This document shows, one piece after another, positions 1 through 12,466 of a DNA stretch of 23,780 bases. Numbering within the stretch: the stretch's first letter is position 1; the number at the start of each line of letters is the position of its first letter. The stretch spans positions 1 through 23,780 of IMG/VR virus record IMGVR_UViG_3300015207_000030; one strand, given 5' to 3'. The translations under genes were made by a program, and so were the position numbers. Origin of the DNA: a virus. Its lineage: Duplodnaviria; Heunggongvirae; Uroviricota; Caudoviricetes. Under the pieces are notes generated by a model, which saw only the letters and a list, made by a program, of their open reading frames with translations, had not been told where the DNA came from and did no database searches.

Positions 1-342
1 AACGGAAGCCGCTACCATATGCTTAACCTCCACGCGACATTTACAAAGGGAACGGTCGAGTTCAGACTTTTTCAATTCGATGCGCCGAGCGACGGCAAAC
101 AAAATGGGCTACACGCGGGGCAGCTCAAGAGTTACATTCAGCTTTGTCTGGCACTGAGCGCACTTGCCAAGAACGCGAAAAGCGCCTCGCCCAAGCCCCA
201 GCAGACCGAAAACCCGAAATACGCGATGAGAACATGGCTGCTCCGCCTCGGCTTTATCGGCGACGAATTCAAGACCGCGCGTGAGACTTTCACAAAGCGG
301 CTCGACGGCAACGGTTCATTCCGAGCGCGCCGAGCGGCTTAA
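1..342 (+). CDS. Amidoligase-family protein (glutamine-synthetase-like fold), C-terminal part; gene starts upstream of the window
   Basis: Frame is open from base 1 (first listed Met at 19). The motif KGTVEFRLFQFD matches the G-T-x-E-x-R signature that lies near the C-terminal end of the catalytic domain in carboxylate-amine ligases, so the gene must start upstream. Followed by an AIG2-like gene, the neighbourhood reported for this family in Firmicutes. Motif recalled from memory. Confidence 0.5.
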   Translation, partial: NGSRYHMLNLHATFTKGTVEFRLFQFDAPSDGKQNGLHAGQLKSYIQLCLALSALAKNAKSASPKPQQTENPKYAMRTWLLRLGFIGDEFKTARETFTKRLDGNGSFRARRAA

Positions 343-419
343 CGCGGACCGCTTGCCCGCTTCGGCGGGCTTAAGGCGGTAGAGGAACGGTTGAACGTCC
401 TCGGAAAGGTGGAATTACA

Positions 420-872
420 ATGAAAAAACTGTACTTAGCTTACGGGAGCAATCTGAACACGGAGCAAATGCGCTTCCGCTGCCCGGGTGCAAAGCCCGTC
501 GGTACGGCGGTGATACGCAATTACGAGCTGCTGTTCAAGGGCTCGCGGACGGGCGCGTACCTCACGATAGAGCCGAAGCGCGGCGGCAAAGTTCCCGTTG
601 CGGTGTGGGAGGTAAGCGCCGAGAACGAACGGGCACTCGACCGTTACGAGGGCTTCCCGGCGTTCTACTACAAAAAGGATATGAACGTCAATGTCAGGCT
701 CCCTGACGGCACGGCCGAACGCCGAGCGGCTTTCGTGTACGTTATGCACGAGGAGCGTCCGCTCGGTGTGCCGACGGGAGCATACGTCGAATGCTGCCGC
801 GAGGGCTACGGGGAATTCGGCTTTGACGAACGGTTTATTGATAATGCAATCGAAAGGAGCGTGAATGTATGA
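420..872 (+). CDS. Gamma-glutamyl cyclotransferase-like protein (AIG2/GGCT family)
   Basis: 150 aa; N-terminal LYLAYGSNL motif (YGSN signature of AIG2/GGCT), later VAVWEV and LDRYEGFPAFYYKK segments typical of the fold; RBS AAAGGTGG about 7 nt upstream of ATG 420. Confidence 0.75.
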   Translation: MKKLYLAYGSNLNTEQMRFRCPGAKPVGTAVIRNYELLFKGSRTGAYLTIEPKRGGKVPVAVWEVSAENERALDRYEGFPAFYYKKDMNVNVRLPDGTAERRAAFVYVMHEERPLGVPTGAYVECCREGYGEFGFDERFIDNAIERSVNV

Positions 873-1294: not shown

Positions 1295-1699
1295 TCAAAG
1301 CGTTTCAAGAAAACTGCCGGGTTTGATCGCGGGGATATCGCTTTCCTCAAAATCGCGCGTGTTTTGGGTGATGATGTATTTGCACGAATTACGCTTTGCC
1401 GTGAGCATTTGAACGGAATCCTCAAAATCCCGCGCTTTAAGCCGTGCTGCTCCCAGCGTGTCTGCGGCTTTGAGATCGACAACGTCAAATATTGCCGCCA
1501 GCTTTATCACAAGATCGTCGGTTTTGTCGGGAGTAAGCTCGCGGCGGAGAATATACACGATATTCGCAATAGACAACGCGGAAACGATACCGTTTATCTG
1601 TCTTGTCTCGCACAGCTTCCATACCTCTGCGGACTGCTCAAAGCCTTGACGGCGTGAAAGCACATCTATCAGAATGTTTGTGTCAATCAAGACCTTCAT
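1295..1699 (-). CDS. vapC: PIN-domain toxin, VapC family
   Basis: 134 aa; N-terminal MKVLIDTNILID with the conserved acidic residue, plus DFEDS and IITQNTRDF segments typical of PIN nucleases; overlaps the upstream antitoxin gene by 17 nt. Confidence 0.8.
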   Translation of the reverse strand: MKVLIDTNILIDVLSRRQGFEQSAEVWKLCETRQINGIVSALSIANIVYILRRELTPDKTDDLVIKLAAIFDVVDLKAADTLGAARLKARDFEDSVQMLTAKRNSCKYIITQNTRDFEESDIPAIKPGSFLETL

Positions 1700-1916
1700 G
1701 CCGCATTACCTTCTCCTCGCGCATTTTTTTGTAATCATAATCGTTTTTTAGAACGCCCGTCAGCTCGTCGGTCAATGATGAAACGGTCTTTTCACGCGAA
1801 ATCATTCTTGCGACCTCTTCGCCGTTTTTGGTGATCCGGATTTCTTCGTTTGACTGCACCAGCTTCAGATATTTTCCGAAGTTGTTCTGCATTTCCGTTG
1901 CGGATACTGTTAACAT
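1683..1916 (-). CDS. Phd/YefM-family antitoxin
   Basis: 77 aa; N-terminal VSATEMQNNFGKYLKLV...ITKNGEEVARMIS pattern of Phd/YefM antitoxins; GGAGG RBS (complement of 1925..1930) about 8 nt upstream of the start. Confidence 0.75.
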   Translation of the reverse strand: MLTVSATEMQNNFGKYLKLVQSNEEIRITKNGEEVARMISREKTVSSLTDELTGVLKNDYDYKKMREEKVMRHEGLD

Positions 1917-3042: not shown

Positions 3043-3414
3043 GTGCAGCAAAAACAGCATATTGAAGATACCGAGCAGATACATCTTTTTGATTGGGCGG
3101 CGATGCAGTCGGGGAAATATCCCGAATTGTCGCTGCTTTTTCATATCCCGAACGGCGGCAAGCGTGACGCACGTGAGGCGGCGCGGTTCAAAAGAATGGG
3201 CGTAAAGGCGGGCGTTCCCGATCTGTTTCTGCCCGTTCCGCGCGGGAAGTTTCACGGATTGTTTGTCGAACTGAAAGCGCCGAAAGGAAAACTTTCCGAT
3301 TATCAGAAGCAGTGGCTTCAGGAGCTTGCGGCGAGCGGCTACGCGGCTTGCGTTTGTTTCGGTTTCGACGAGGCTCGGCAGGATATTATGAAGTATCTTG
3401 AGGGGAAATTCTGA
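3043..3414 (+). CDS. VRR-NUC domain nuclease (PD-(D/E)xK superfamily)
   Basis: 123 aa from a GTG start with RBS GAGGTG; motifs HIPNGG.R, GVPDL and FVELK...GKLS..Q..W match the VRR-NUC signature as I recall it. Confidence 0.75.
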   Translation: MQQKQHIEDTEQIHLFDWAAMQSGKYPELSLLFHIPNGGKRDAREAARFKRMGVKAGVPDLFLPVPRGKFHGLFVELKAPKGKLSDYQKQWLQELAASGYAACVCFGFDEARQDIMKYLEGKF

Positions 3415-3524: not shown

Positions 3525-5441
3525 TTGCGAAACGAGACCAAGCGGCAGCGGGAGGCAAAGCTGAACGCGTGTATCACGAAAGTCTTGAACGCGATGAAGC
3601 CTCCCGAAATAAGAACAGTGGCGGAGTGGGCGGATAAGAACCGCCGTTTAACGTCGGAATCATCGGCGGAGGTAGGCAAATGGCGCACCTCGCGCACGCC
3701 GTATATGCTGGATATTCTGAACTCGTTCACCGACCCGAAGGTCGAGCACATTGTTGTGGTTGCCTCCTCGCAGGTCGGGAAATCCGAGGTTGAAAACAAT
3801 ATCGTCGGATACATTATAGATCAGGACCCCGGTCCGATATTATTTGTACAGCCGACGGTAGACGACGCGAAGAAATATTCCGAAATGCGTATCGCTCCGA
3901 TGATACGTGAAACAAAGTGCCTTAAGAAAAAGGTCGCGGACCCGAAAACGCGCGATGGCGCAAACACCAAGCGTCAGAAAGCGTTTCCGGGAGGAGTGCT
4001 CGTGCTAGCGGGTTCAAATGTTCCACATGATCTGTGTTCAATGCCTATTCGGTATCTGATCGGCGACGAGCGTGACCGTTGGGCAAAATCGGCGGGCTCG
4101 GAGGGCGATCCATGGGAACTGGCGGTCGCGCGTACAAGAACGTTTTACAACCGCAAGCTGATAGAGGTCTCCACGCCGACCGTTAAAGGAGCGTCCGCTA
4201 TTGCCAAGGCGTACAGTCTCGGTACTATGGAGCGTTGGAAAACACAATGTCAGCATTGCGGCGGGTATTCCGAGGTGCAGTTTGAAGATATCCGTTTTGA
4301 ATATGATTCCGTTGACAAAGATGAAGAGAAGATATTCGATATCAAGTCGATTTTCTATGTTTGTCCGATTTGCGGCGGCGTTTCTTTGGAGAACGAGGTG
4401 AAAAAACAGCCGTCGAAATGGGAGGCGGAAGTGCCCGAGGCAAAGGAACTGCATAAGACCCGTTCGTTCTGGCTGACGGCATGGGTCTCCCCGTGGGCAA
4501 CATGGGAGTCTATCATACTGCAATTCCTGCAAGCGGGTACGGATTCCGCAAAGCTGCAGGTAGTGTACAACACTCAATTCGGCAAGCTGTGGGAAAATCG
4601 CGGCGATATGGACAGCGAGGAGGATATGCTCGCGCGTCGCGAGGAATACGGTGCGGAGCTGCCGGACGGCGTTCTGGTGCTGACGTGCGGCGTTGATACA
4701 CAGGACGACCGCTTGGAATATGAGGTGGTGGGCTATGGACATTTTAAAGAAAAATGGGGCATAAAAAAGGGCGTCATTATGGGCAGACCCGATACAAACG
4801 AAGTGTGGGAGCGGCTTGATGATGTTATAGCTCACAAATACACATTTTCAAACGGGCTGTCGCTCGGCGTATCGTTGACGTTTGTCGATGAGGGCGGTCA
4901 TTTTACACAGGAGGTACGCAGGCGCTGCCGCGAGCGGCAAAGCAAAAACGTATTTGCGATCAAGGGCGCATCGGGCAGTCGGGATATTCCGTATACGTCC
5001 GTTCCGAAACGGCAGAAGATCGTAATAAACGGTCAGACCGTCGGTTCTGTATGGGTGTATGAGATCGGCGTTGACGCGGGCAAGCAAAAGATCTTTGACG
5101 ATCTGCGTGTGCAGACGCCCGGGGCGAATTACTGCCATTTCCCGCGCCGCGACGATTACGGTAAGGCGTTCTTCAAGTCGTATATGTCGGAACGCCTGAC
5201 ATATAACGAAAAACTCAAAAACCCGTGGCGTTGGGAAAAAATTCCCGGGCATGAGCGTAACGAGGCACTGGACTGCCGAAATTACGCAAACGCGGCATTT
5301 GCGGCACTCGATCCCGATCTTGACGCTGTCGAACATCGATTAAAAGCGATGTTAATCGGAACAACGGCAGGCGCGCCGAAAAAGAAATCCCCGAAAACAG
5401 CGAGAAGAAAGCCGACGGACACGGCATACAGCGATTGGTGA
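3525..5441 (+). CDS. terL: Terminase large subunit, lambda GpA family
   Basis: 638 aa; TTG start after RBS GGAGGTG; Walker A-like SSQVGKSE within a PYMLDILNS...LFVQPTVDDA...PMIRE block matching the lambda gpA N-terminal ATPase region; CQHCGG and CPICGG zinc-finger-like pairs. Confidence 0.85.
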   Translation: MRNETKRQREAKLNACITKVLNAMKPPEIRTVAEWADKNRRLTSESSAEVGKWRTSRTPYMLDILNSFTDPKVEHIVVVASSQVGKSEVENNIVGYIIDQDPGPILFVQPTVDDAKKYSEMRIAPMIRETKCLKKKVADPKTRDGANTKRQKAFPGGVLVLAGSNVPHDLCSMPIRYLIGDERDRWAKSAGSEGDPWELAVARTRTFYNRKLIEVSTPTVKGASAIAKAYSLGTMERWKTQCQHCGGYSEVQFEDIRFEYDSVDKDEEKIFDIKSIFYVCPICGGVSLENEVKKQPSKWEAEVPEAKELHKTRSFWLTAWVSPWATWESIILQFLQAGTDSAKLQVVYNTQFGKLWENRGDMDSEEDMLARREEYGAELPDGVLVLTCGVDTQDDRLEYEVVGYGHFKEKWGIKKGVIMGRPDTNEVWERLDDVIAHKYTFSNGLSLGVSLTFVDEGGHFTQEVRRRCRERQSKNVFAIKGASGSRDIPYTSVPKRQKIVINGQTVGSVWVYEIGVDAGKQKIFDDLRVQTPGANYCHFPRRDDYGKAFFKSYMSERLTYNEKLKNPWRWEKIPGHERNEALDCRNYANAAFAALDPDLDAVEHRLKAMLIGTTAGAPKKKSPKTARRKPTDTAYSDW

Positions 5442-5451
5442 GGTAACCGAA

Positions 5452-5709
5452 ATGATAAGTAAAAAAACCGCGCGGAAGATGTACAACTACTACACCGAGC
5501 GCATAGATCAGCTGATACAAGCGCAGACCGCATTGACGAGCGGCGGCGTTAAATCGTACACTATCGGCGACAGACAGGTCACGAAATTTGACTTGACGCG
5601 GCTGTCGCAGGAGCTTGATGATGCTGTGGAGAAACAGGCGTATTACGATGCGATACTTAAAGGCAAGCCTACGCGCGCGATCGTGGGGATCGTTCCGACG
5701 GATAAATAA
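5452..5709 (+). CDS. Head-tail joining / head completion protein, lambda gpW-like
   Basis: 85 aa directly after terL; LTSGG...YTIGDRQVT...L..L pattern resembles lambda W; position matches lambda gene order. Confidence 0.5.
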   Translation: MISKKTARKMYNYYTERIDQLIQAQTALTSGGVKSYTIGDRQVTKFDLTRLSQELDDAVEKQAYYDAILKGKPTRAIVGIVPTDK

Positions 5710-5740
5710 AACAGCGGCAGCTTTGAGGGCTGCCGCTGCT
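5710..5740. terminator. Bidirectional intrinsic terminator shared by the W-like gene (+) and hicB (-)
   Basis: Stem CAGCGGCAGC (5712..5721) / GCTGCCGCTG (5729..5738) with 7 nt loop; A-rich on the left (U-tract for the minus transcript) and T-containing on the right. Confidence 0.6.
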
Positions 5741-5743
5741 TGG

Positions 5744-6151
5744 TTAATCTTGAATGTGACATTGCTTTTTCAGACCGTCCAGAAGCACGGCTGAGAAATT
5801 CACGCCCTGTTCTTCGGCGATTGCGTTGACCCAACCGGGAATGGAGAGGGTTTTCTTTACGAAGTGCTTGTGCATTTTCTCGCGGAACGGTTTCATATAG
5901 ACTTCGATAAGCATTGGAAGCTCGTTTTTTTCAAGCTGAATATCCTTAAGCTCCGAGGGCTCAGGAATTTCCTCCTTGTCCTCCTCCATTCCGTAAAGGT
6001 GCAGCAGAAGAGCGTCTTTAGCGCTTTCGATTGCTTTTTCGGTGGTTTCCCCCGCGCTTACACAGCCGGGGAGGTCGGGGAAATATATGCCGATTGTTCC
6101 TTTATCGCCGTATTCCAACACGGCGATAAATCTGTATTTGTCGAGGTACAT
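5744..6151 (-). CDS. hicB: HicB-family antitoxin-like protein with C-terminal DNA-binding (RHH-like) tail; no HicA partner found
   Basis: 135 aa; N-terminal YRFIAVLEYGDKGTIGIYFPDLPGCVSAGETTEKAIESAKDALLLHL matches the HicB/UPF0150 signature (PDLPGC core); C-terminal KKTLSIPGWVNAIAEEQGVNFSAVLLDGLKK resembles an RHH/CopG-type segment; RBS AGGAG 6 nt upstream. Confidence 0.75.
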   Translation of the reverse strand: MYLDKYRFIAVLEYGDKGTIGIYFPDLPGCVSAGETTEKAIESAKDALLLHLYGMEEDKEEIPEPSELKDIQLEKNELPMLIEVYMKPFREKMHKHFVKKTLSIPGWVNAIAEEQGVNFSAVLLDGLKKQCHIQD

Positions 6152-6262
6152 AAAGTTCTCCTTTCGATAGTCGGCATTACCGAGGGTTTAACAATTATAT
6201 TGTAATACGCAATTTGTTACGTGTCAAGTGGCTTTTCAAAAATTTTTAAAGAAGGTGAAAAA

Positions 6263-7777
6263 ATGAGCGGCTATTCAGATGCGGGCGCGAGTTATGACAA
6301 ACGCGCCTTAAAAGCCTTTATAGCGCGTTCTCTGTCGGCGATAGAGGATATCGACTATAACAACTTTACGCTGCGGCAGCGTGCGCGTATGCTGTATATG
6401 GCGTCGCCGATAGCGGCGGCAGCGATCAACACCAACCGCACAAAGATAGTCGGCAAAGGTCTGCGGCTGAAATGCAACATTGATTATGAGACGCTGGGGA
6501 TTTCCCCCGAGGCAGCCAAGAAATGGTGCAGACGCACCGAGGCGGCGTTCCGCTTTTGGTGCGAGGATCGCCGCAACTGCGACGCGCTCGGAATAAACAA
6601 TTTTTTCGAGCTTCAAAGTCTGGCGTGCAAATCATGGCTGATGAGCGGAGACGTTTTCGTGTTGCTGAAGCGCGAAAAGGCAACTCCGCTCAATCCGTAC
6701 ACACTGCGGCTGCATCTTGTCGAAGCCGATCGCGTATGCACTCCCGCGACCGCGGACGGCGGTTTGTGGAACGTTACCGAGGGCGAGTACAAGGGTCACA
6801 AGGTGCATGACGGCGTTGAGGTCGACGACAACGGTAAAGCGGTCGCGTACCACGTCTGCAACATCTATCCGGGGCAGATGAGCGCAAAAACGGAGAATTG
6901 GGTGCGTATAAAGGCAGTCGGCGAAAAAACGGGGCTGCCGAATATTCTGCACATAATGGACGCGGAGCGTCCCGATCAGTATCGGGGCGTTTCTTATTTG
7001 GCGTCGGTTATCGAGATGATCCTGCAGCTGCGCAGATACGTTGAGAGCGAACTGTTGGCGGCGCTTGTGCAGACATACCTTACTGCGTGGATAAAAGCCG
7101 CAGGCGACACGTCAGAAATGCCTATCATAGGGGATCAGGACGAGGAGGACGAAGAGGAACGATATGACAAAGACCCGCAGATGGCTCCCGGGAACGTTAT
7201 ACATTTAAAGCCCGGCGAGGATGTTATTTTCGGCAATCCGAATATCCCGACAGCGGGCTTTGAGACGTTCTCCAAGACGATCATAAAGCAGATAGGCGCT
7301 GGGCTTGAAATACCGTATGATGTGCTTGTCAAAGAGTTCAATTCCTCGTATTCCGCGTCAAAGGGCGCGCTCGAGGAGGCTTGGGAGGCTGTCAAAATGC
7401 GCCGCGCGTGGTTCGTGTCGGATTTTTGCCAGCCGATTTACGAGGTCTGGCTTTCGGAGGCGGTCGCGCTCGGCAAGATAAACGCTCCCGGTTTTTTCGA
7501 TGATCCGCTTATACGAGCGGCTTGGTGCGGTTCACGCTGGGACGGCCCCGCGCAAACTCACCTTGATCCGCTTAAAGAGGCAAAAGCAAACGCTATACTC
7601 GTTCAGAACGGCTGGAAAACCAACGAGCAGACCACACGCGAGTATTACGGCGAGAATTGGGAGGAAAATATGCAGCAGCTCGAACAGGAGAACGGGCTGA
7701 AAAACGCCGTTTGTCCGCCTGTAACAAATATGGATTTCAGCGATGAGGAGGAAGACGAAGATGCCAAAAACGATTGA
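6263..7777 (+). CDS. Portal protein, lambda gpB family
   Basis: Listed ORF starts at GTG 6221; I prefer ATG 6263 behind RBS GAAGGTGA. The segment FETFSKTIIKQIGAGLEIPYDVLVKEFNSSYSASKGALEEAWEAVKMRRAWFVSDFCQPIYEVWLSEAV parallels the lambda gpB C-terminal region as I recall it; acidic C-terminal tail. Confidence 0.8.
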   Translation: MSGYSDAGASYDKRALKAFIARSLSAIEDIDYNNFTLRQRARMLYMASPIAAAAINTNRTKIVGKGLRLKCNIDYETLGISPEAAKKWCRRTEAAFRFWCEDRRNCDALGINNFFELQSLACKSWLMSGDVFVLLKREKATPLNPYTLRLHLVEADRVCTPATADGGLWNVTEGEYKGHKVHDGVEVDDNGKAVAYHVCNIYPGQMSAKTENWVRIKAVGEKTGLPNILHIMDAERPDQYRGVSYLASVIEMILQLRRYVESELLAALVQTYLTAWIKAAGDTSEMPIIGDQDEEDEEERYDKDPQMAPGNVIHLKPGEDVIFGNPNIPTAGFETFSKTIIKQIGAGLEIPYDVLVKEFNSSYSASKGALEEAWEAVKMRRAWFVSDFCQPIYEVWLSEAVALGKINAPGFFDDPLIRAAWCGSRWDGPAQTHLDPLKEAKANAILVQNGWKTNEQTTREYYGENWEENMQQLEQENGLKNAVCPPVTNMDFSDEEEDEDAKND

Positions 7778-8999
7778 ACGCGCTTGTTATGCGCTGGCAG
7801 CCGACAGCAAATCGGAAACGGCAGAGCTTACGCTTTACGGAAACGTTGTCAAAAGGCGTCCGCTCGAGATCGATTGGGATAACGACAGGATCGCCAAGTC
7901 GACGGATAATTATATCGTTGAACAGGAATTTCTCGACGATTTAAAGGCTGTCGGGAAATGCAGGAAATTGAATATCCGCGTGAACTCTCTCGGCGGCGAT
8001 GTGCATGTCGCGCTTACAATTTACAGCCGTTTGCGCGAGCTCACGGAAAACGGCACGGAGCTTACCTGTTCCGTGGACGGAGTGGCAATGTCGGCGGGTT
8101 CGATGATAATGTGCGCCGCTGATAAGGTCACGGCAAGCGAAAGCTCGCTGATAATGGTTCACCGCAGTATGACGATGCCGCCGGATTATCTTAACGCGGA
8201 CGAGCTTCGCAAAGAGGCGGAGAGAATGGACGAGTACGACAAGGCGATAGCGTCCTGTTACAAACGCAAAACGGGAAAGTCCGAGGCGGAGCTGCTCCGC
8301 ATGATGAGTAAGGAGACATATATGACGGGCGCGGAGGCAAAGGACGCGGGCTTTGTGGACGAGCTTACAAGCTCTGAAAAATTAATAGCGATCGCGGCTT
8401 GTGCGGATATGAGATCACTTATGGTGGGCGGCAGAACGTTCGATTTAATGGGCGCTCCCATGCCCTTGAATTTACCGACGGTAACACAGCCCGAGCCGCA
8501 AGGCGGCGCGGACGTTACAGATATATCACAAACTGAAGGAGGTAACGGAATTATGGCAAATAACTTTGATGAACTGCTTAAAGAGAACCCCGCTCTCGCG
8601 GCGGCTATCGAAAAGGAGTTAAAGGCAAAAGCCGAGGCGGACGTTTCGGCTAAGGCGAACGAGACGGCAGCTAAAGCGGTCGAAGCGGAGCGGAAGAGAA
8701 TAGCCGAGATCGACGAGATAGCGGCGCTGTATTCTCCCGAACTGGTGGAGGCGGCGAAGTACGGCGACAAGGCGTGTACAGCGCAGGAACTCAGCTACAG
8801 AGCGGCTGTCGAGAACGCCAAGAGGGGCAGGAAGTTCGGCGACGATCTTCTGGCTGACGCAAAGGATTCGGGAGTGGGCGGCGTTCATGCTGCCGTTCCG
8901 CCCGCCGAGGGCAATGGCGGCGAAAAGTCGGAGGACGAGCTTATGGCAGAGGCAAGAGCAGCCGTTAAGGCGGCGCTCGGAGAGGAGGTAACGGCATGA
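7761..8999 (+). CDS. Prohead protease (ClpP/S49-like) fused to or nested with a scaffold domain, lambda gpC-like
   Basis: NSLGGDV and GVAMSAGSMIM match ClpP-family serine protease motifs; C-terminal third is Ala/Glu/Lys-rich coiled coil typical of scaffolds. Start could be ATG 7743 or ATG 7761 (RBS GAGGAGG). Confidence 0.75.
   Translation: MPKTIERACYALAADSKSETAELTLYGNVVKRRPLEIDWDNDRIAKSTDNYIVEQEFLDDLKAVGKCRKLNIRVNSLGGDVHVALTIYSRLRELTENGTELTCSVDGVAMSAGSMIMCAADKVTASESSLIMVHRSMTMPPDYLNADELRKEAERMDEYDKAIASCYKRKTGKSEAELLRMMSKETYMTGAEAKDAGFVDELTSSEKLIAIAACADMRSLMVGGRTFDLMGAPMPLNLPTVTQPEPQGGADVTDISQTEGGNGIMANNFDELLKENPALAAAIEKELKAKAEADVSAKANETAAKAVEAERKRIAEIDEIAALYSPELVEAAKYGDKACTAQELSYRAAVENAKRGRKFGDDLLADAKDSGVGGVHAAVPPAEGNGGEKSEDELMAEARAAVKAALGEEVTA
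8553..8999 (+). CDS. Possible nested in-frame scaffold protein (lambda Nu3-like arrangement)
   Basis: Internal in-frame ATG at 8553 preceded by strong RBS GAAGGAGG (8535..8542); downstream sequence is the coiled-coil Ala/Glu-rich part of the protease ORF. Confidence 0.35.
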   Translation: MANNFDELLKENPALAAAIEKELKAKAEADVSAKANETAAKAVEAERKRIAEIDEIAALYSPELVEAAKYGDKACTAQELSYRAAVENAKRGRKFGDDLLADAKDSGVGGVHAAVPPAEGNGGEKSEDELMAEARAAVKAALGEEVTA

Positions 9000-9364
9000 C
9001 GGAGCTGTCAAAGAAAACAGCCGCTATGGAGCCCGACGATCTGGTAGTCGGCACACAGCCGCCTTTGCGGACGGTCGGCGCGACCGTTAAAGGCGGCGCG
9101 GGCGAGCTTAAACGCGGCACGATAATGGCAAAGGGAGCGGACGGACTGCTGGATATTCTCGGAAAAGATACCGAAGCGGAGGCTTACGGCATTCTGACCG
9201 ACGATATCAACGCTGCCGACGGCGATCAGCCCGCAGTGATCTACATCAGCGGCAAATTCAACGCCAACAAAATGATCGCCGCGGACGGCTATACGATCAC
9301 GGAAAAAGACAAGGATACGCTACGCAAGTACGGCATCGAGCTTACCGCCGCGCTGTCCTATTGA
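8996..9364 (+). CDS. Head decoration protein, lambda gpD-like
   Basis: 122 aa between protease/scaffold and major capsid; AYGILTDDINAADGDQPAVIYISGKFNANKMI resembles the lambda D core (GILA...T.Y.SG.F). Confidence 0.55.
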   Translation: MTELSKKTAAMEPDDLVVGTQPPLRTVGATVKGGAGELKRGTIMAKGADGLLDILGKDTEAEAYGILTDDINAADGDQPAVIYISGKFNANKMIAADGYTITEKDKDTLRKYGIELTAALSY

Positions 9365-9384
9365 TAAAAGGAGGGACTTTGATA

Positions 9385-10461
9385 ATGCCTAATACGCTTG
9401 ATATTTTCAGCTCCTATACAATGCTGGCGACTCTGGAGCTTGTTAAGCCCGAGACGCTGTTCTTTTCGTCGCGCTATTTCCCTACGGGAGCGGGGGATAT
9501 TTTCAATTCCGACAAGGTGCTTGTCGAATACACAAAGGGCGACCGCAAAATGGCTCCGTTCGTTTCGGAGAGGATCGGCGCTGTTCCCGTTGAGAGACGG
9601 GGCTACGAGATACGCGAGTTTGCGCCCGCGCACATCGGCGTTTCGCGCACGCTCACTCTGGACGATCTTAAAAAGCGCGGGTTCGGCGAGGCGCTGTACT
9701 CCAATACCAAGCCCGCGGAGCGCGCTCTGCGTATGCAGCTTGAGGATATGACCGATCTTAACAAACGCATTTCACGCCGCGAGGAGTGGATGTCGGTGCA
9801 GACCATGATCAACAACGCCTGCCCCGTACAGGAGATGTTTGACGCGAAAACGGTGGGCGAGGAGAAACTCGTACAGTTCTTCGGCAGCGAAAGCTCCGAG
9901 CATATTTACACCGTCGCCAATATGTGGAATTCCAAAGACGGAAACATAACCGGAGACGTTTATGTAATGTGCGAGCAGCTTGCAGGCAGAGGACTGAACG
10001 CCGTCGATCTGGTTATCGGCTCGGACGTTGCGGACGTGTTCTACGACGATCCTGTCATCGCGAGAATGATAGACAAAAACTCGGGCATCAATTTCGGCAT
10101 GATAAACGAGCAGATAGTTTATCCCGGAGTATCGCAGATAGGTCCTCTTAATTTCAGAGGGCACTGGCTGACCATTTATGTGGTGTCGACGTCTTACGAG
10201 GACGAAAACGGCGTTACAAGACCGTATTTCCCCAAAAATTCGGCTATGGTAACATATCCGAATTGCGGCCACAAAATGTACGGGCGGATCACGCAGATGC
10301 CTTACGGTTCTATCGATTACAAGACGATCGCGGCAAAACGTGTTCCGAAGCTTATAGTGGACAATGCCAACGATACGAGAGCGCTGTCGCTCAAAACGCG
10401 TCCGCTTACTGCACCGAGGACATACTGCCCGTACATCTACGCGGCAAACGTAGTGGGCTGA
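9385..10461 (+). CDS. Major capsid protein, lambda gpE family
   Basis: ATG 9385 behind RBS AAAGGAGGG; the N-terminal 90 aa share the pattern Y...P..F.S.YFP...MA.FVS...PV...G..EF.P with lambda E as I recall it; size and position fit. Confidence 0.75.
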   Translation: MPNTLDIFSSYTMLATLELVKPETLFFSSRYFPTGAGDIFNSDKVLVEYTKGDRKMAPFVSERIGAVPVERRGYEIREFAPAHIGVSRTLTLDDLKKRGFGEALYSNTKPAERALRMQLEDMTDLNKRISRREEWMSVQTMINNACPVQEMFDAKTVGEEKLVQFFGSESSEHIYTVANMWNSKDGNITGDVYVMCEQLAGRGLNAVDLVIGSDVADVFYDDPVIARMIDKNSGINFGMINEQIVYPGVSQIGPLNFRGHWLTIYVVSTSYEDENGVTRPYFPKNSAMVTYPNCGHKMYGRITQMPYGSIDYKTIAAKRVPKLIVDNANDTRALSLKTRPLTAPRTYCPYIYAANVVG

Positions 10462-11286: not shown

Positions 11287-11951
11287 GCACAACAGGCGGT
11301 ATGATAGCGGTCAAGAGCTTCGGTGGCGAGGCGCTGGATCACGCGGCTAAGGTGCTGGCTGGGATACCCGACGGCGTAAACAAGGCGGTAAGGAGCGCGC
11401 TCCCGAGAACTGTTTCCTCGCTGCGCGGTGAGAGCGTCAGGGCGATACAGACGAAATACGATATTTCGGCGGCGAATATACGCTCTAAGCAGAATATATC
11501 GATAAGGTACTCTTACGGCGCTGTTTCGGAGGCGTATGTGCTGTTTTCAGGAAGAAAGATACCGCTGTATCGGTACAACGGCACTTCCCCGAAAAATCCT
11601 GCTGTGAACGCAAGCAAGACGGTAATGGTGAATATTGACGGCACGCTTAAGCCCATGCACCCGGGCGTTGCGGCAGCGGCGCATCAGCTTAAAGGCACGT
11701 CGCCCACGAAATTTCAGAACGCGTTCGTTACGAAAATGGATTCGGGGCACGTCGGCATTTTTGAGCGCACGGGCGGCGTGACTTCAAGCGGCAGAGATCA
11801 GATCAAGGAGCTGCAGGGCTCGTCCGTTCCGCAAATGCTCGGAAACGAGAGCGTTCAAACTCATCTTGCGGACAGAGCGTCGCAGAAGTTCGAGGAACGA
11901 ATGGAGCACGAGATACTCAGAATACTTAACGGATGGGGGCAAGGTAAGTGA
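11283..11951 (+). CDS. Hypothetical virion morphogenesis / connector protein
   Basis: 222 aa, ATGA overlap with the preceding gene; lies in the connector gene block; no family recognised. Confidence 0.45.
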   Translation: MSTTGGMIAVKSFGGEALDHAAKVLAGIPDGVNKAVRSALPRTVSSLRGESVRAIQTKYDISAANIRSKQNISIRYSYGAVSEAYVLFSGRKIPLYRYNGTSPKNPAVNASKTVMVNIDGTLKPMHPGVAAAAHQLKGTSPTKFQNAFVTKMDSGHVGIFERTGGVTSSGRDQIKELQGSSVPQMLGNESVQTHLADRASQKFEERMEHEILRILNGWGQGK

Positions 11952-12466
11952 CGGCAAGAGAATTACTGCACACGCTGAAAAAATTCTGCGAGGATTCCGT
12001 AAAGGGAATGGTGCTGCCAACGGCGGTGCAAAGAGGCGATACGGAGGAACACAAGCGCGTTCCGACAATGTATGAAATGCGTCTGCCTGACAGCGGAAAC
12101 GCCGAAAAATTAGCGCCTTACGAGATAATTCAAGTGGTGCATACGAAGCATATCCAGAACCCGGGCGACAAGCCGCGCTATTTTGTTGATGTGCGGCTCG
12201 TGTTCTGCGTGTACTGCGAGGACGAACAGGACGGCGCAATAATGCTCCTTAACTTTATGGAAAGAGTGCAGATGCGCTTATTGAAAGAAGTGGATATCGG
12301 CAGCTTGTGTCTGCTGGACGTAAACGAGCCGCTGGAAATGCTTATTTACCCCGAGGACACCGCGCCGTATTACGCGGGGGAGATGTCGGGAACATTCGTT
12401 CTCCCCGGAACAGAAAGAGAGGTTGATTTAAATGGGCTCAAGAGCCAAATTGGAAAAAGAATATGA
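11948..12466 (+). CDS. Hypothetical connector / tail completion protein
   Basis: 172 aa, GTG start overlapping the previous stop (GTGA); synteny only. Confidence 0.4.
   Translation: MTARELLHTLKKFCEDSVKGMVLPTAVQRGDTEEHKRVPTMYEMRLPDSGNAEKLAPYEIIQVVHTKHIQNPGDKPRYFVDVRLVFCVYCEDEQDGAIMLLNFMERVQMRLLKEVDIGSLCLLDVNEPLEMLIYPEDTAPYYAGEMSGTFVLPGTEREVDLNGLKSQIGKRI

What the first reader, a model, noticed from the sequence alone, without database searches (positions are those of the whole stretch)
5710..6262. Orphan HicB-like gene on the opposite strand inside the head-gene block
A clear HicB-family protein with a DNA-binding tail sits alone between the W-like and portal genes, with its own terminator and a leader containing the near-palindrome ACAATTATATTGT (6191..6203). 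I found no HicA-like ORF on either side. A phage-encoded antitoxin without a toxin could neutralise a host HicA-type toxin, or it may be a repurposed regulator.
Basis: partly seen in the sequence, partly recalled or inferred. Interest (0 to 1): 0.6.

Follow-up and report, generated by a model that had tools for sequence, protein, structure and literature searches.

The report
Phage HicB antitoxin that lost its toxin
This gut-bacterium phage carries an intact, separately expressed HicB antitoxin gene with no toxin, because the hicA toxin gene kept by all its close relatives at the same spot was cleanly deleted; this is a common way for toxin-antitoxin pairs to decay and is of modest interest.

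Summary
ORF 5744-6151 (-) encodes a 135-aa HicB: an N-terminal HicB fold plus a C-terminal ribbon-helix-helix (RHH) DNA-binding tail. It has its own near-consensus promoter, Shine-Dalgarno (SD) site and terminator, and sits between a gpW-like gene and the portal gene. No HicA is encoded anywhere in the window.

Comparison with relatives explains why. Every close relative checked (79-90% identical HicB) sits in the same gpW|portal slot of sister phages and has a 64-aa hicA directly upstream. The promoter and the hicA-hicB spacer, including the hicA stop codon, are still present in the window. About 207 bp, the hicA SD and all its sense codons, is missing, with the junction at 6190|6191. So this is a hicAB module that lost its toxin, not an antitoxin acquired alone.

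Toxin-first loss recurs in this family. About 14 independent metagenomic lineages show it, and so do the C. difficile phages phiCD119 and phiCDHM19. HicB usually stays intact.

The conserved operator-like palindrome lies between -35 and -10 (6205-6224).

Whether the orphan HicB now neutralises HicA from sister phages or hosts, or is a recent neutral remnant, cannot be decided: the orphan lineage is clonal. New member of a known kind; interest about 0.3.

The parts
5744..6151 (-). hicB coding sequence, 135 aa plus stop. Residues 1-95 form the HicB N-terminal (HicA-binding, partial RNase H-like) domain. Residues ~98-131 form the ribbon-helix-helix domain.
5709..5741 (-). Intrinsic terminator hairpin of hicB: 13-bp stem with 8 G-C pairs, followed by a T-rich tail. 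It sits between the convergent gpW-like and hicB genes.
6158..6163 (-). hicB Shine-Dalgarno site (AAGGAG), 6 nt upstream of the ATG.
   Evidence: sequence; conserved in relatives
6152..6190 (-). Leader that is homologous to the hicA-hicB spacer of relatives. It includes the former hicA stop codon TAA (6190-6188). The deletion junction lies between 6190 and 6191.
6191..6203 (.). It overlaps the -10 hexamer and the predicted transcription start, abuts the deletion junction, and is not conserved in the family.
6199..6204 (-). -10 hexamer TACAAT (TATAAT in most relatives).
6205..6224 (.). Operator-like palindrome ACACGTAA-CAAA-TTGCGTAT between -35 and -10. It pairs at 6 of 8 positions here and at 5-8 of 8 across the family (all but one locus at 6 or more), with compensatory changes in relatives.
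6222..6227 (-). -35 hexamer TTGACA.
5452..5709 (+). Upstream flank: gpW-position head-tail adaptor gene, 85 aa.
6263..7777 (+). Downstream flank: lambda-family portal gene, 504 aa. It is divergent from hicB, and its ATG lies 36 nt from the hicB -35 hexamer.

Best explanation
The gene is the surviving antitoxin/repressor half of a phage-borne hicAB 'moron' (an extra gene unit with its own promoter and terminator) whose toxin gene was removed by a clean deletion of about 207 bp.

Shown: in the ancestral arrangement, still present in all close relatives checked, one sigma-70-type promoter carrying a palindromic operator drives hicA (64 aa) and then hicB. The unit is inserted antisense between the gpW-like and portal genes. 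In this phage lineage the hicA Shine-Dalgarno site and all 64 sense codons are gone. The promoter now runs straight into the old hicA stop codon, the 37-nt spacer, the hicB Shine-Dalgarno site and hicB.

Inferred: host RNA polymerase still makes HicB. HicB dimerises through its ribbon-helix-helix tail and represses its own promoter at the operator between -35 and -10. It has no toxin to hold in cis. Its intact N-terminal domain would bind any closely related HicA supplied in trans, for example from the sister phages. That would give immunity to their addiction or abortive-infection effect as a by-product. Nothing here shows that this has been selected for; the deletion is recent, so the gene may simply not have decayed yet.
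For: HicB identity and architecture.

Absence of hicA in the window. Absence in about 36 kb of a 62-kb contig of the same phage.

Same slot with hicA+hicB in relatives:
- P0003, 88%
- P0002, 90%
- P0004, 83%
- P0007, 82%
- P0009, 81%
- L016, 79%

P0001 (the window protein) is nested inside this paired clade.

Promoter, hicA stop codon and spacer align base for base on either side of the missing segment.

The HicB protein shows no decay. It keeps every column that is at least 80% conserved among the 120 closest homologues, apart from E46D. dN/dS against L004 is 0.065. The relative-rate count is 7 versus 8 amino-acid changes with L016 as outgroup.

The same toxin-first loss is seen in about 14 independent metagenomic lineages, as deletions, frameshifts or a nonsense codon. 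HicB has a full-length ORF in 13 of the 14 lineages examined, and in all 17 toxin-broken loci it keeps 34-38 of 38 conserved columns, against a mean of 36.9 in 58 paired loci. It is also seen in C. difficile phages phiCD119 and phiCDHM19, which keep the same promoter plus a 10-codon hicA stub.

The operator palindrome is conserved with compensatory changes across the family.
Against: No expression, DNA-binding or toxin-binding data exist.

The orphan lineage is clonal. Other contigs differ from the window almost only in a recombination tract at 7794-10290 and show no difference in 808 bp around hicB. Selection after the deletion therefore cannot be measured.

About 27 kb of the phage genome and the whole host genome were not searched for a hicA elsewhere.

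The operator pairs at only 6 of 8 positions here. That is within the family range, so it neither supports nor refutes autoregulation.
Confidence: 0.85

Rival explanations
1. Selected counter-defence or anti-addiction gene. The toxin-less hicB is kept because HicB neutralises HicA from co-resident or superinfecting hicAB-carrying sister phages, plasmids or the host. That would let this phage or its lysogen escape HicA-based abortive infection or post-segregational killing.
For: HicB is intact, with a near-consensus promoter, Shine-Dalgarno site and terminator.

Potential targets are abundant and uniform. The sister cluster has 13 HicB variants on about 170 contigs, all the loci examined carrying an identical 64-aa HicA. 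HicA is far more conserved than HicB across the family: 73-78% identity where HicB is about 42%.

Orphan hicB genes persist in phages with no trace of hicA. In the 165-kb Bacillus phages FADO and PJN02, hicB differs at 8 nt but only 1 aa, while the flanks are 92.9% identical.

There is precedent for orphan antitoxins acting as phage counter-defence (PMC11825919). The idea is stated for HicAB in a review (PMC11594946).
Against: There is no post-deletion divergence in this lineage on which to test selection.

Toxin-first decay is expected without any selection, because losing the antitoxin first is lethal.

The orphan clone is rarer than its paired sisters: 22 contigs against about 170.

Cross-neutralisation is unproven; there are 16 amino-acid differences from the nearest paired HicB.
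Confidence: 0.3
2. Purely neutral relic. The deletion is recent, HicB has no remaining role beyond repressing its own promoter, and the gene will decay.
For: The orphan lineage is clonal and the single protein variant is 100% identical on all contigs.

Many relatives show hicA at various stages of decay, so module erosion is common.

A similar view was raised for prophage hicB genes without hicA in Moraxella catarrhalis (PMC4619438).
Against: Across about 14 independent toxin-loss lineages, hicB is almost never broken and keeps its conserved residues as well as paired copies do.

Orphan hicB in the Bacillus phages shows mostly synonymous change.

Both observations are hard to reconcile with rapid neutral decay, although the survey was seeded with HicB and is biased towards intact copies.
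Confidence: 0.45
3. Repurposed transcription regulator. Freed from HicA, the RHH protein now controls other phage genes, for example the divergent portal/late operon or lysogeny genes.
For: The hicB promoter and operator lie only about 36-58 nt upstream of the portal start codon and are divergent from it. hicB is antisense to the late operon, so its transcription could interfere with late read-through.
Against: The same geometry exists in the paired sister phages, so it is not new to the orphan.

The DNA-binding tail is unchanged at conserved positions.

No further copies of the operator were sought or seen.
Confidence: 0.07
4. Assembly or gene-calling artefact: hicA is really present but was lost in assembly.
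For: None found.
Against: The same junction occurs in independent assemblies from NCBI, ENA and Logan samples. The index lists this exact HicB protein in 43 blocks of the collection, and the look-up for the protein itself read 21 contigs. In all 7 loci of this lineage whose DNA I read, hicA is absent from the slot; the junction bases themselves were compared only in L001, L003 and L014, which are identical to the window over the 808 bp around hicB.
Confidence: 0.01

Closest known systems
Type II HicAB systems with an RHH-type HicB (S. pneumoniae HicBA 5YRZ; B. pseudomallei HicAB 6G26; Y. pestis HicB3 4P7D)
   Same: Same two-domain HicB: an N-terminal HicA-binding fold plus a C-terminal ribbon-helix-helix. 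The sister-phage HicA matches B. pseudomallei HicA at E 5e-17. In relatives the gene order is hicA upstream of hicB, with a palindrome in the promoter.
   Different: There is no hicA in cis here. Sequence identity to the solved HicBs is only 20-36% in the Foldseek alignments. Nothing has been tested biochemically.
Sister phages of Oscillospiraceae/Ruminococcus metagenome-assembled genomes carrying hicA-hicB in the gpW|portal slot (loci L004-L009, L015, L016, L023, L112-L119)
   Same: Same phage backbone: TerL 93%, gpW 96%, HicB 88%, and portal N-terminal 300 aa 83% identical to L004. Same slot, orientation, promoter, spacer and terminator.
   Different: They keep the 64-aa HicA; the window lacks about 207 bp. 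L004 also has an extra ~185 bp between the portal start and the promoter.
C. difficile phages phiCD119 (ORF44) and phiCDHM19 (gp48)
   Same: A HicB of the same family (47% identical), alone, behind the same promoter/operator type (TTTACACGTATATAAATACGTGTTATAAT). hicA is reduced to a 10-codon stub, MKSYSSREIL. This is an independent example of the same toxin-first loss in cultured phages.
   Different: It is located in the lysogeny module between repR and int, not in the head-gene block. A hicA stub remains there, whereas the window has none.
Paenibacillus larvae phages (e.g. Harrison gp81 HicA / gp80 HicB); Aeribacillus phage AP45
   Same: Complete phage-borne hicAB of the same family, annotated as such.
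   Different: They are paired, and they sit at a different genome position.
Orphan antitoxins used by phages as counter-defence (DarG-like orphan antitoxin in T4-like phages, PMC11825919); prophage hicB without hicA in Moraxella catarrhalis (PMC4619438); solitary hicB genes in defence islands (PMC10865869)
   Same: An antitoxin homologue without its toxin on a phage or mobile element.
   Different: A counter-defence role has been demonstrated for the DarG-like case only. For hicB it is conjecture, both in those papers and here.

Membership tests
HicB antitoxin (type II HicAB) | N-terminal HicB / partial RNase H-like fold (Pfam PF15919) | tested here: met
   PF15919 E 2e-16; PHROG 497 E 6e-39. 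The model's N-domain matches 6G1C at TM 0.80-0.81, rmsd ~2 A.
HicB antitoxin (type II HicAB) | C-terminal DNA-binding domain (RHH or HTH) | tested here: met
   Residues 96-128 align to the RHH of 5YRZ HicB. The model shows helices 106-114 and 119-130 after the KKTLSIP strand segment.
HicB antitoxin (type II HicAB) | Encoded in an operon with an adjacent hicA toxin gene | tested here: not met
   No HicA in the window by Pfam scan of all ORFs of 48-140 aa, by tblastn, or by a family HMM. The feature is met in all close relatives checked, so the gene is a HicB by descent but no longer part of a TA pair.
HicB antitoxin (type II HicAB) | Binds and neutralises HicA | not testable with these tools
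   All conserved HicB columns are retained apart from E46D. A complex prediction with the sister-phage HicA could not be submitted.
HicB antitoxin (type II HicAB) | Autoregulates through a palindromic operator in its promoter | tested here: inconclusive
   An 8-N4-8 palindrome between -35 and -10 is conserved family-wide with compensatory changes (L017, L062, L059). In the window it pairs at 6 of 8 positions. No binding data.
Phage moron (autonomous accessory transcription unit within a late operon) | Own promoter and terminator, inserted between conserved structural genes, not needed for the virion | tested here: met
   Promoter matches 11 of 12 positions, plus a terminator. It sits between the gpW-like and portal genes, on the opposite strand. 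The PHROG category is 'moron, auxiliary metabolic gene and host takeover'.
Phage orphan-antitoxin counter-defence | Neutralises a host- or competitor-encoded toxin during infection or lysogeny | not testable with these tools
   Only circumstantial evidence: a conserved HicA is abundant in sister phages.
Phage orphan-antitoxin counter-defence | A cognate toxin is present in the host or co-resident elements | not tested

The most novel reading that the evidence does not exclude
The toxin-less hicB is a naturally arising 'immunity allele' in competition between sister phages. By deleting hicA but keeping a constitutively expressed HicB, this phage and its lysogens become immune to the HicA-based addiction or abortive-infection system of the far more abundant hicAB-carrying sister phages. 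The recurrent toxin-first losses across the family, including phiCD119 and the large Bacillus phages, would then reflect selection for such anti-HicA genes rather than passive decay.
Probability: 0.25. Interest if true: 0.55.

Novelty: new member of a known kind. Interest (0 to 1): 0.3.

Why it matters
The case gives a clean, datable natural example of how a phage toxin-antitoxin module turns into a lone antitoxin. The promoter, operator, spacer and antitoxin are all kept, and only the toxin is excised. Intact sister phages are available as controls.

This makes an open question directly testable: are the many 'HicB-like' genes annotated in phages (PHROG 497) anti-toxin weapons or just leftovers? 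The test is to pair the window hicB with the sister-phage hicA.

On present evidence, however, it is an ordinary outcome of toxin-antitoxin evolution, and the gene family is already annotated.

Tried and rejected
1. A hidden or small HicA in the window. Rejected by Pfam scans of 234 ORFs, by tblastn and by a family HMM.

2. Rejected as the conserved element: it has only 5-bp arms, is not reported by the repeat finder, and is not conserved beyond the closest relatives.

3. 'The operator has decayed after toxin loss.' The window pairs at 6 of 8 positions, but paired loci range from 5 to 8, so there is no signal.

4. 'The hicAB slot is a mosaic recombination breakpoint.' I suspected this from 57% whole-portal identity. 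I withdrew it because the portal N-terminal 300 aa are 83% identical to L004; the divergence lies further inside the portal gene.

5. A test of selection after the deletion. Impossible: the orphan contigs are clonal around hicB and their SNPs are confined to 7794-10290. phiCD119 and phiCDHM19 are identical over 602 bp.

6. IMG/VR. It holds no close relative, only 42%-identical paired loci.

7. Other libraries. Rfam gave no hit in the window. NCBIfam and PADLOC gave no hit for HicB or HicA.

9. The strong hairpin inside the hicB 5' coding region. It is present only in the closest relatives and is probably a by-product of the FIAVLEY-DK codons.

Full report
**1. What is there**

The ORF at 5744-6151 on the minus strand encodes a 135-aa protein. 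It matches Pfam HicB_lk_antitox (PF15919, E 2e-16, residues 8-98) and PHROG 497 'toxin-antitoxin system HicB-like' over its full length (E 6e-39).

By sequence, residues 96-128 (VKKTLSIPGWVNAIAEEQGVNFSAVLLDGL) align to the C-terminal ribbon-helix-helix (RHH) of S. pneumoniae HicB (5YRZ). Residues 32-133 align to another solved HicB, 9SVK_B, at E 4e-14.

An AlphaFold2 model built on 66 homologues has mean pLDDT 91.6. Its topology is beta-beta-beta-alpha-beta, then a helix, then the two RHH helices. Foldseek against the PDB returns full-length matches to the HicB chains of 5YRZ, 6G26 and 4P7D, and N-domain matches to 6G1C at TM 0.8. The protein is therefore a canonical RHH-type HicB.

**2. Its transcription unit and neighbours**

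Upstream on the plus strand are a gpA-type large terminase (3525-5441) and an 85-aa gene in the position of lambda W (5452-5709; PHROG 118 head-tail adaptor). Downstream is a lambda-family portal gene, whose ATG is at 6263.

On the minus strand hicB has these signals:
- A promoter, TTGACA (6227-6222), 17 nt, TACAAT (6204-6199), matching 11 of 12 consensus positions.
- A Shine-Dalgarno (SD) site, AAGGAG (6163-6158).
- A terminator hairpin with a 13-bp stem at 5741-5709, followed by a T-rich tail.

This is the anatomy of a phage 'moron', an extra gene unit with its own promoter and terminator, here set antisense in the late operon.

It has only 5-bp arms. It overlaps the -10 hexamer and the predicted start site, and it was not picked up by the repeat finder.

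**3. No HicA in the window**

All 234 stop-to-stop ORFs of 48-140 aa in six frames were scanned against Pfam. None hit HicA_toxin (PF07927). tblastn with the sister-phage HicA found nothing at E<=0.01. A HicA HMM built from eight family members scored at best E 1.5 on any ORF of 12 aa or more.

Two further stretches of a 62-kb contig of the same phage, which together with the window cover about 36 kb, also contain no HicA.

**4. Why it is alone**

The exact protein (P0001) is on record in 43 blocks of the collection, always in this context.

Its closest relatives all sit in the same gpW|portal slot of sister phages, and all have a 64-aa HicA (PF07927) immediately upstream:
- P0002, 90% identical
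- P0003, 88%
- P0004, 83%
- P0007, 82%
- P0009, 81%
- L016, 79%

In a neighbour-joining tree, P0001 is nested inside this paired clade, as sister to P0002 and P0003.

At the DNA level the paired loci read:
TTGACACGTAACAAATTACGTGTTATAATATAATTGT-AAGGAGGAACAGTAA-ATG...hicA...TTC-TAAGCCCCGGCATTGCCGAAATCCCGAAAGGAGAAT...ATG(hicB).

The window reads:
TTGACACGTAACAAATTGCGTATTACAATATAATTG-TTAAACCCTCGGTAATGCCGACTATCGAAAGGAGAAC...ATG(hicB).

The promoter, the hicA stop codon, the 37-nt hicA-hicB spacer and the hicB SD are all retained. The hicA SD and its 64 sense codons, about 207 bp, are missing. The junction lies between 6190 and 6191.

Parsimony, the nesting in the tree and the retained stop codon and spacer all point to a deletion in this lineage rather than an insertion of hicA in the others.

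**5. State of the surviving gene**

The orphan HicB keeps every column that is at least 80% conserved among 120 homologues, apart from a conservative E46D, and it has no rare residues.

Against the paired L004 copy, dS is 0.87 and dN/dS is 0.065. That is similar to TerL (0.048) and gpW (0.021). With L016 as outgroup, the window branch has 7 unique amino-acid changes against 8 on the L004 branch. There is no sign of relaxed constraint.

This says little about the period after the deletion, however. The contigs carrying the orphan differ from the window almost only within 7794-10290, a recombination tract in the protease, decoration and capsid genes. They are identical over 808 bp around hicB. 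The deletion is therefore recent and the lineage clonal.

The orphan is also rarer than its sisters: one protein variant on 22 contigs, against 13 variants on about 170 contigs.

**6. The regulatory palindrome**

In loci whose HicB is 41-88% identical to the window's, the promoter has the form TT[GT]ACACGTA-N-TACGTGTTATAAT. This is an 8-N4-8 inverted repeat that starts inside the -35 hexamer and ends at the -10 hexamer.

Relatives show compensatory changes:
- L017: ACACGTAG...CTACGTGT
- L062: ACACGTGC...GCACGTGT
- L059: ACACGCAA...TTGCGTAT

The 42%-identical group has a different but perfect 20-bp palindrome at the same position.

This is the likely HicB operator, inferred by analogy with RHH-type HicB autoregulation. 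In the window it is at 6205-6224 and pairs at 6 of 8 positions. That is within the range seen in paired loci (5-8), so there is no evidence of operator decay.

Elsewhere it is absent.

**7. The pattern is recurrent**

Of 80 metagenomic loci carrying this HicB family, 76 could be assessed: 59 have an intact hicA upstream and 17 have a broken or absent one. Four could not be assessed because too little upstream sequence was available.

The 17 fall into about 14 independent lineages:
- Complete deletions: L044, L045, L063, L065, L082.
- 5' stubs: L062, L076, L080.
- 3' stubs: L071, L079 (L045 also keeps a weak 3' trace).
- Frameshifts: L042 and the L064 group.
- A nonsense codon: L043.
- A truncation: L067.

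HicB has a full-length ORF in 13 of the 14 lineages examined. In all 17 toxin-broken loci it retains 34-38 of 38 conserved columns, against a mean of 36.9 in 58 paired loci. The survey was seeded with HicB, so it is biased towards intact copies.

Among cultured phages, 146 records hold a relative of this HicB. Only 72 hold a relative of this HicA, with, for example, Paenibacillus at 61 versus 23 records and Clostridium at 8 versus 4.
- Paenibacillus phage Harrison has the annotated pair.
- C. difficile phages phiCD119 and phiCDHM19 carry a lone hicB behind the same promoter/operator, with an unannotated 10-codon hicA stub (MKSYSSREIL).
- The 165-kb Bacillus phages FADO and PJN02 carry a lone hicB with no hicA trace. 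The two copies differ at 8 nt but only 1 aa, while the flanks are 92.9% identical.

**8. Mechanism and alternatives**

Shown: this is a toxin-deleted hicAB module in which hicB and all its expression signals are intact.

Inferred: HicB is still made and represses its own promoter, and it would bind a closely related HicA supplied in trans.

Whether that trans-immunity is the reason the gene persists (anti-addiction or counter-defence), or whether the gene is a recent neutral remnant, is undecided.
- For a retained function: the recurrence of intact lone hicB genes, the mostly synonymous change in the Bacillus phages, the strong conservation and abundance of the sister-phage HicA, and the precedent of orphan antitoxins as phage counter-defence (PMC11825919). 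The concept is also stated in the HicAB review PMC11594946.
A similar view was expressed for Moraxella prophages (PMC4619438).

A repurposed-regulator role has no specific support, because the geometry relative to the portal gene is the same in the paired sisters. An assembly artefact is excluded by the many independent assemblies.

**9. Comparison with what is known, and novelty**

HicAB modules on phages, solitary hicB genes and the idea of phage antitoxins as counter-defence are all in the literature (PMC11594946, PMC10865869, PMC4619438, PMC10504277). PHROG 497 already labels this family.

What this analysis adds is the origin of this particular gene, a clean hicA deletion with sister phages as living ancestors. 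It also adds the family-wide promoter/operator and the observation that toxin-first loss is frequent in the family, including in phiCD119.

It is a new member of a known kind. Interest is modest (0.3). It would rise to about 0.55 if the anti-HicA immunity reading were demonstrated.

Noticed in passing
window 1295-1916 (-): A complete second toxin-antitoxin pair. A Phd/YefM antitoxin (1683-1916, TIGR01552 E 9e-11) overlaps a PIN/VapC-like toxin (1295-1699, PF13470 E 2e-19). The hicAB-carrying sister phage L004 has no such pair between its GGACT gene and its 224-aa gene. So the two phages differ reciprocally in toxin-antitoxin content: Phd-PIN plus lone hicB here, hicAB without Phd-PIN there.
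   Followed up: partly
window 6101-6130 (inside the hicB 5' coding region): A strong 13-14 bp hairpin (TTTATCGCCGTATT/AACACGGCGATAAA) covers codons 8-17. It is present in the closest relatives (L004, L113, L023, L016) but lost in L112, L114, L117 and in distant ones. It is probably a by-product of the FIAVLEY-DK codons, though a role in translation or stability was not excluded.
   Followed up: partly
window 7794-10290: Almost all SNPs between the window and other contigs of the same phage (L001, L003, L014, L103, L104) cluster in the prohead protease/scaffold, decoration and major capsid genes. The terminase-hicB-portal region to its left is identical apart from one SNP, and another contig (L107) carries a separate dense cluster at 11948-12130. 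This looks like recombination tracts in the head and adjacent genes.
   Followed up: no
L004 3500-3717 versus window 6228-6262: The sister phage L004 has about 185 extra bp between the portal start codon and the hicAB promoter. L016 and L017 are short there, like the window. The content of the insert was not examined.
   Followed up: no
paired relatives, e.g. L004 3942-3966; window 6180-6190: In paired loci a hairpin GGGCTTA-N5-TAAGCCC spans the hicA stop codon, followed by a small palindrome CGGCATTGCCG in the hicA-hicB spacer. The window keeps only the 3' half of the first hairpin and a variant of the second. These may relate to differential hicA/hicB expression; compare the intra-operon terminator reported for a plasmid hicAB in PMC11878559 (I saw only the abstract).
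   Followed up: no
loci L010-L019 versus L004: HicA is much more conserved than HicB across the family. HicA stays 73-78% identical where HicB has dropped to about 42%.
   Followed up: no
L109 (phiCD119, NC_007917.1 ~32134-32250) and L120 (phiCDHM19): There is an unannotated hicA remnant (ATGAAATCTTATTCTTCAAGAGAAATTTTAAAGGAG, giving MKSYSSREILKE...) together with the family promoter/operator upstream of the annotated HicB-like ORF44 / gp48. It lies between the repressor and integrase genes.
   Followed up: yes
window 6263-7777 versus L004: Portal identity to the sister phage is 83% over the first 300 aa but only 57% overall. A mosaic boundary therefore lies inside the portal gene.
   Followed up: partly
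window 1-872 and L103 1-9923: The region upstream of the packaging genes holds an Amidoligase_2 plus GGACT/AIG2 gene pair, two DNA cytosine methylases, a ParB-N6/N4 methyltransferase fusion, an HNH endonuclease and a VRR-NUC nuclease (3043-3414). This is a sizeable anti-restriction/modification set.
   Followed up: no
L111 (Bacillus phage FADO) and L121 (vB_BsuS_PJN02): Large (165-kb) Bacillus phages carry a lone hicB of this family with no hicA trace. hicB is 98% identical between the two phages (8 nt, 1 aa difference) while the flanks are 92.9% identical. This suggests purifying selection on an orphan hicB.
   Followed up: partly
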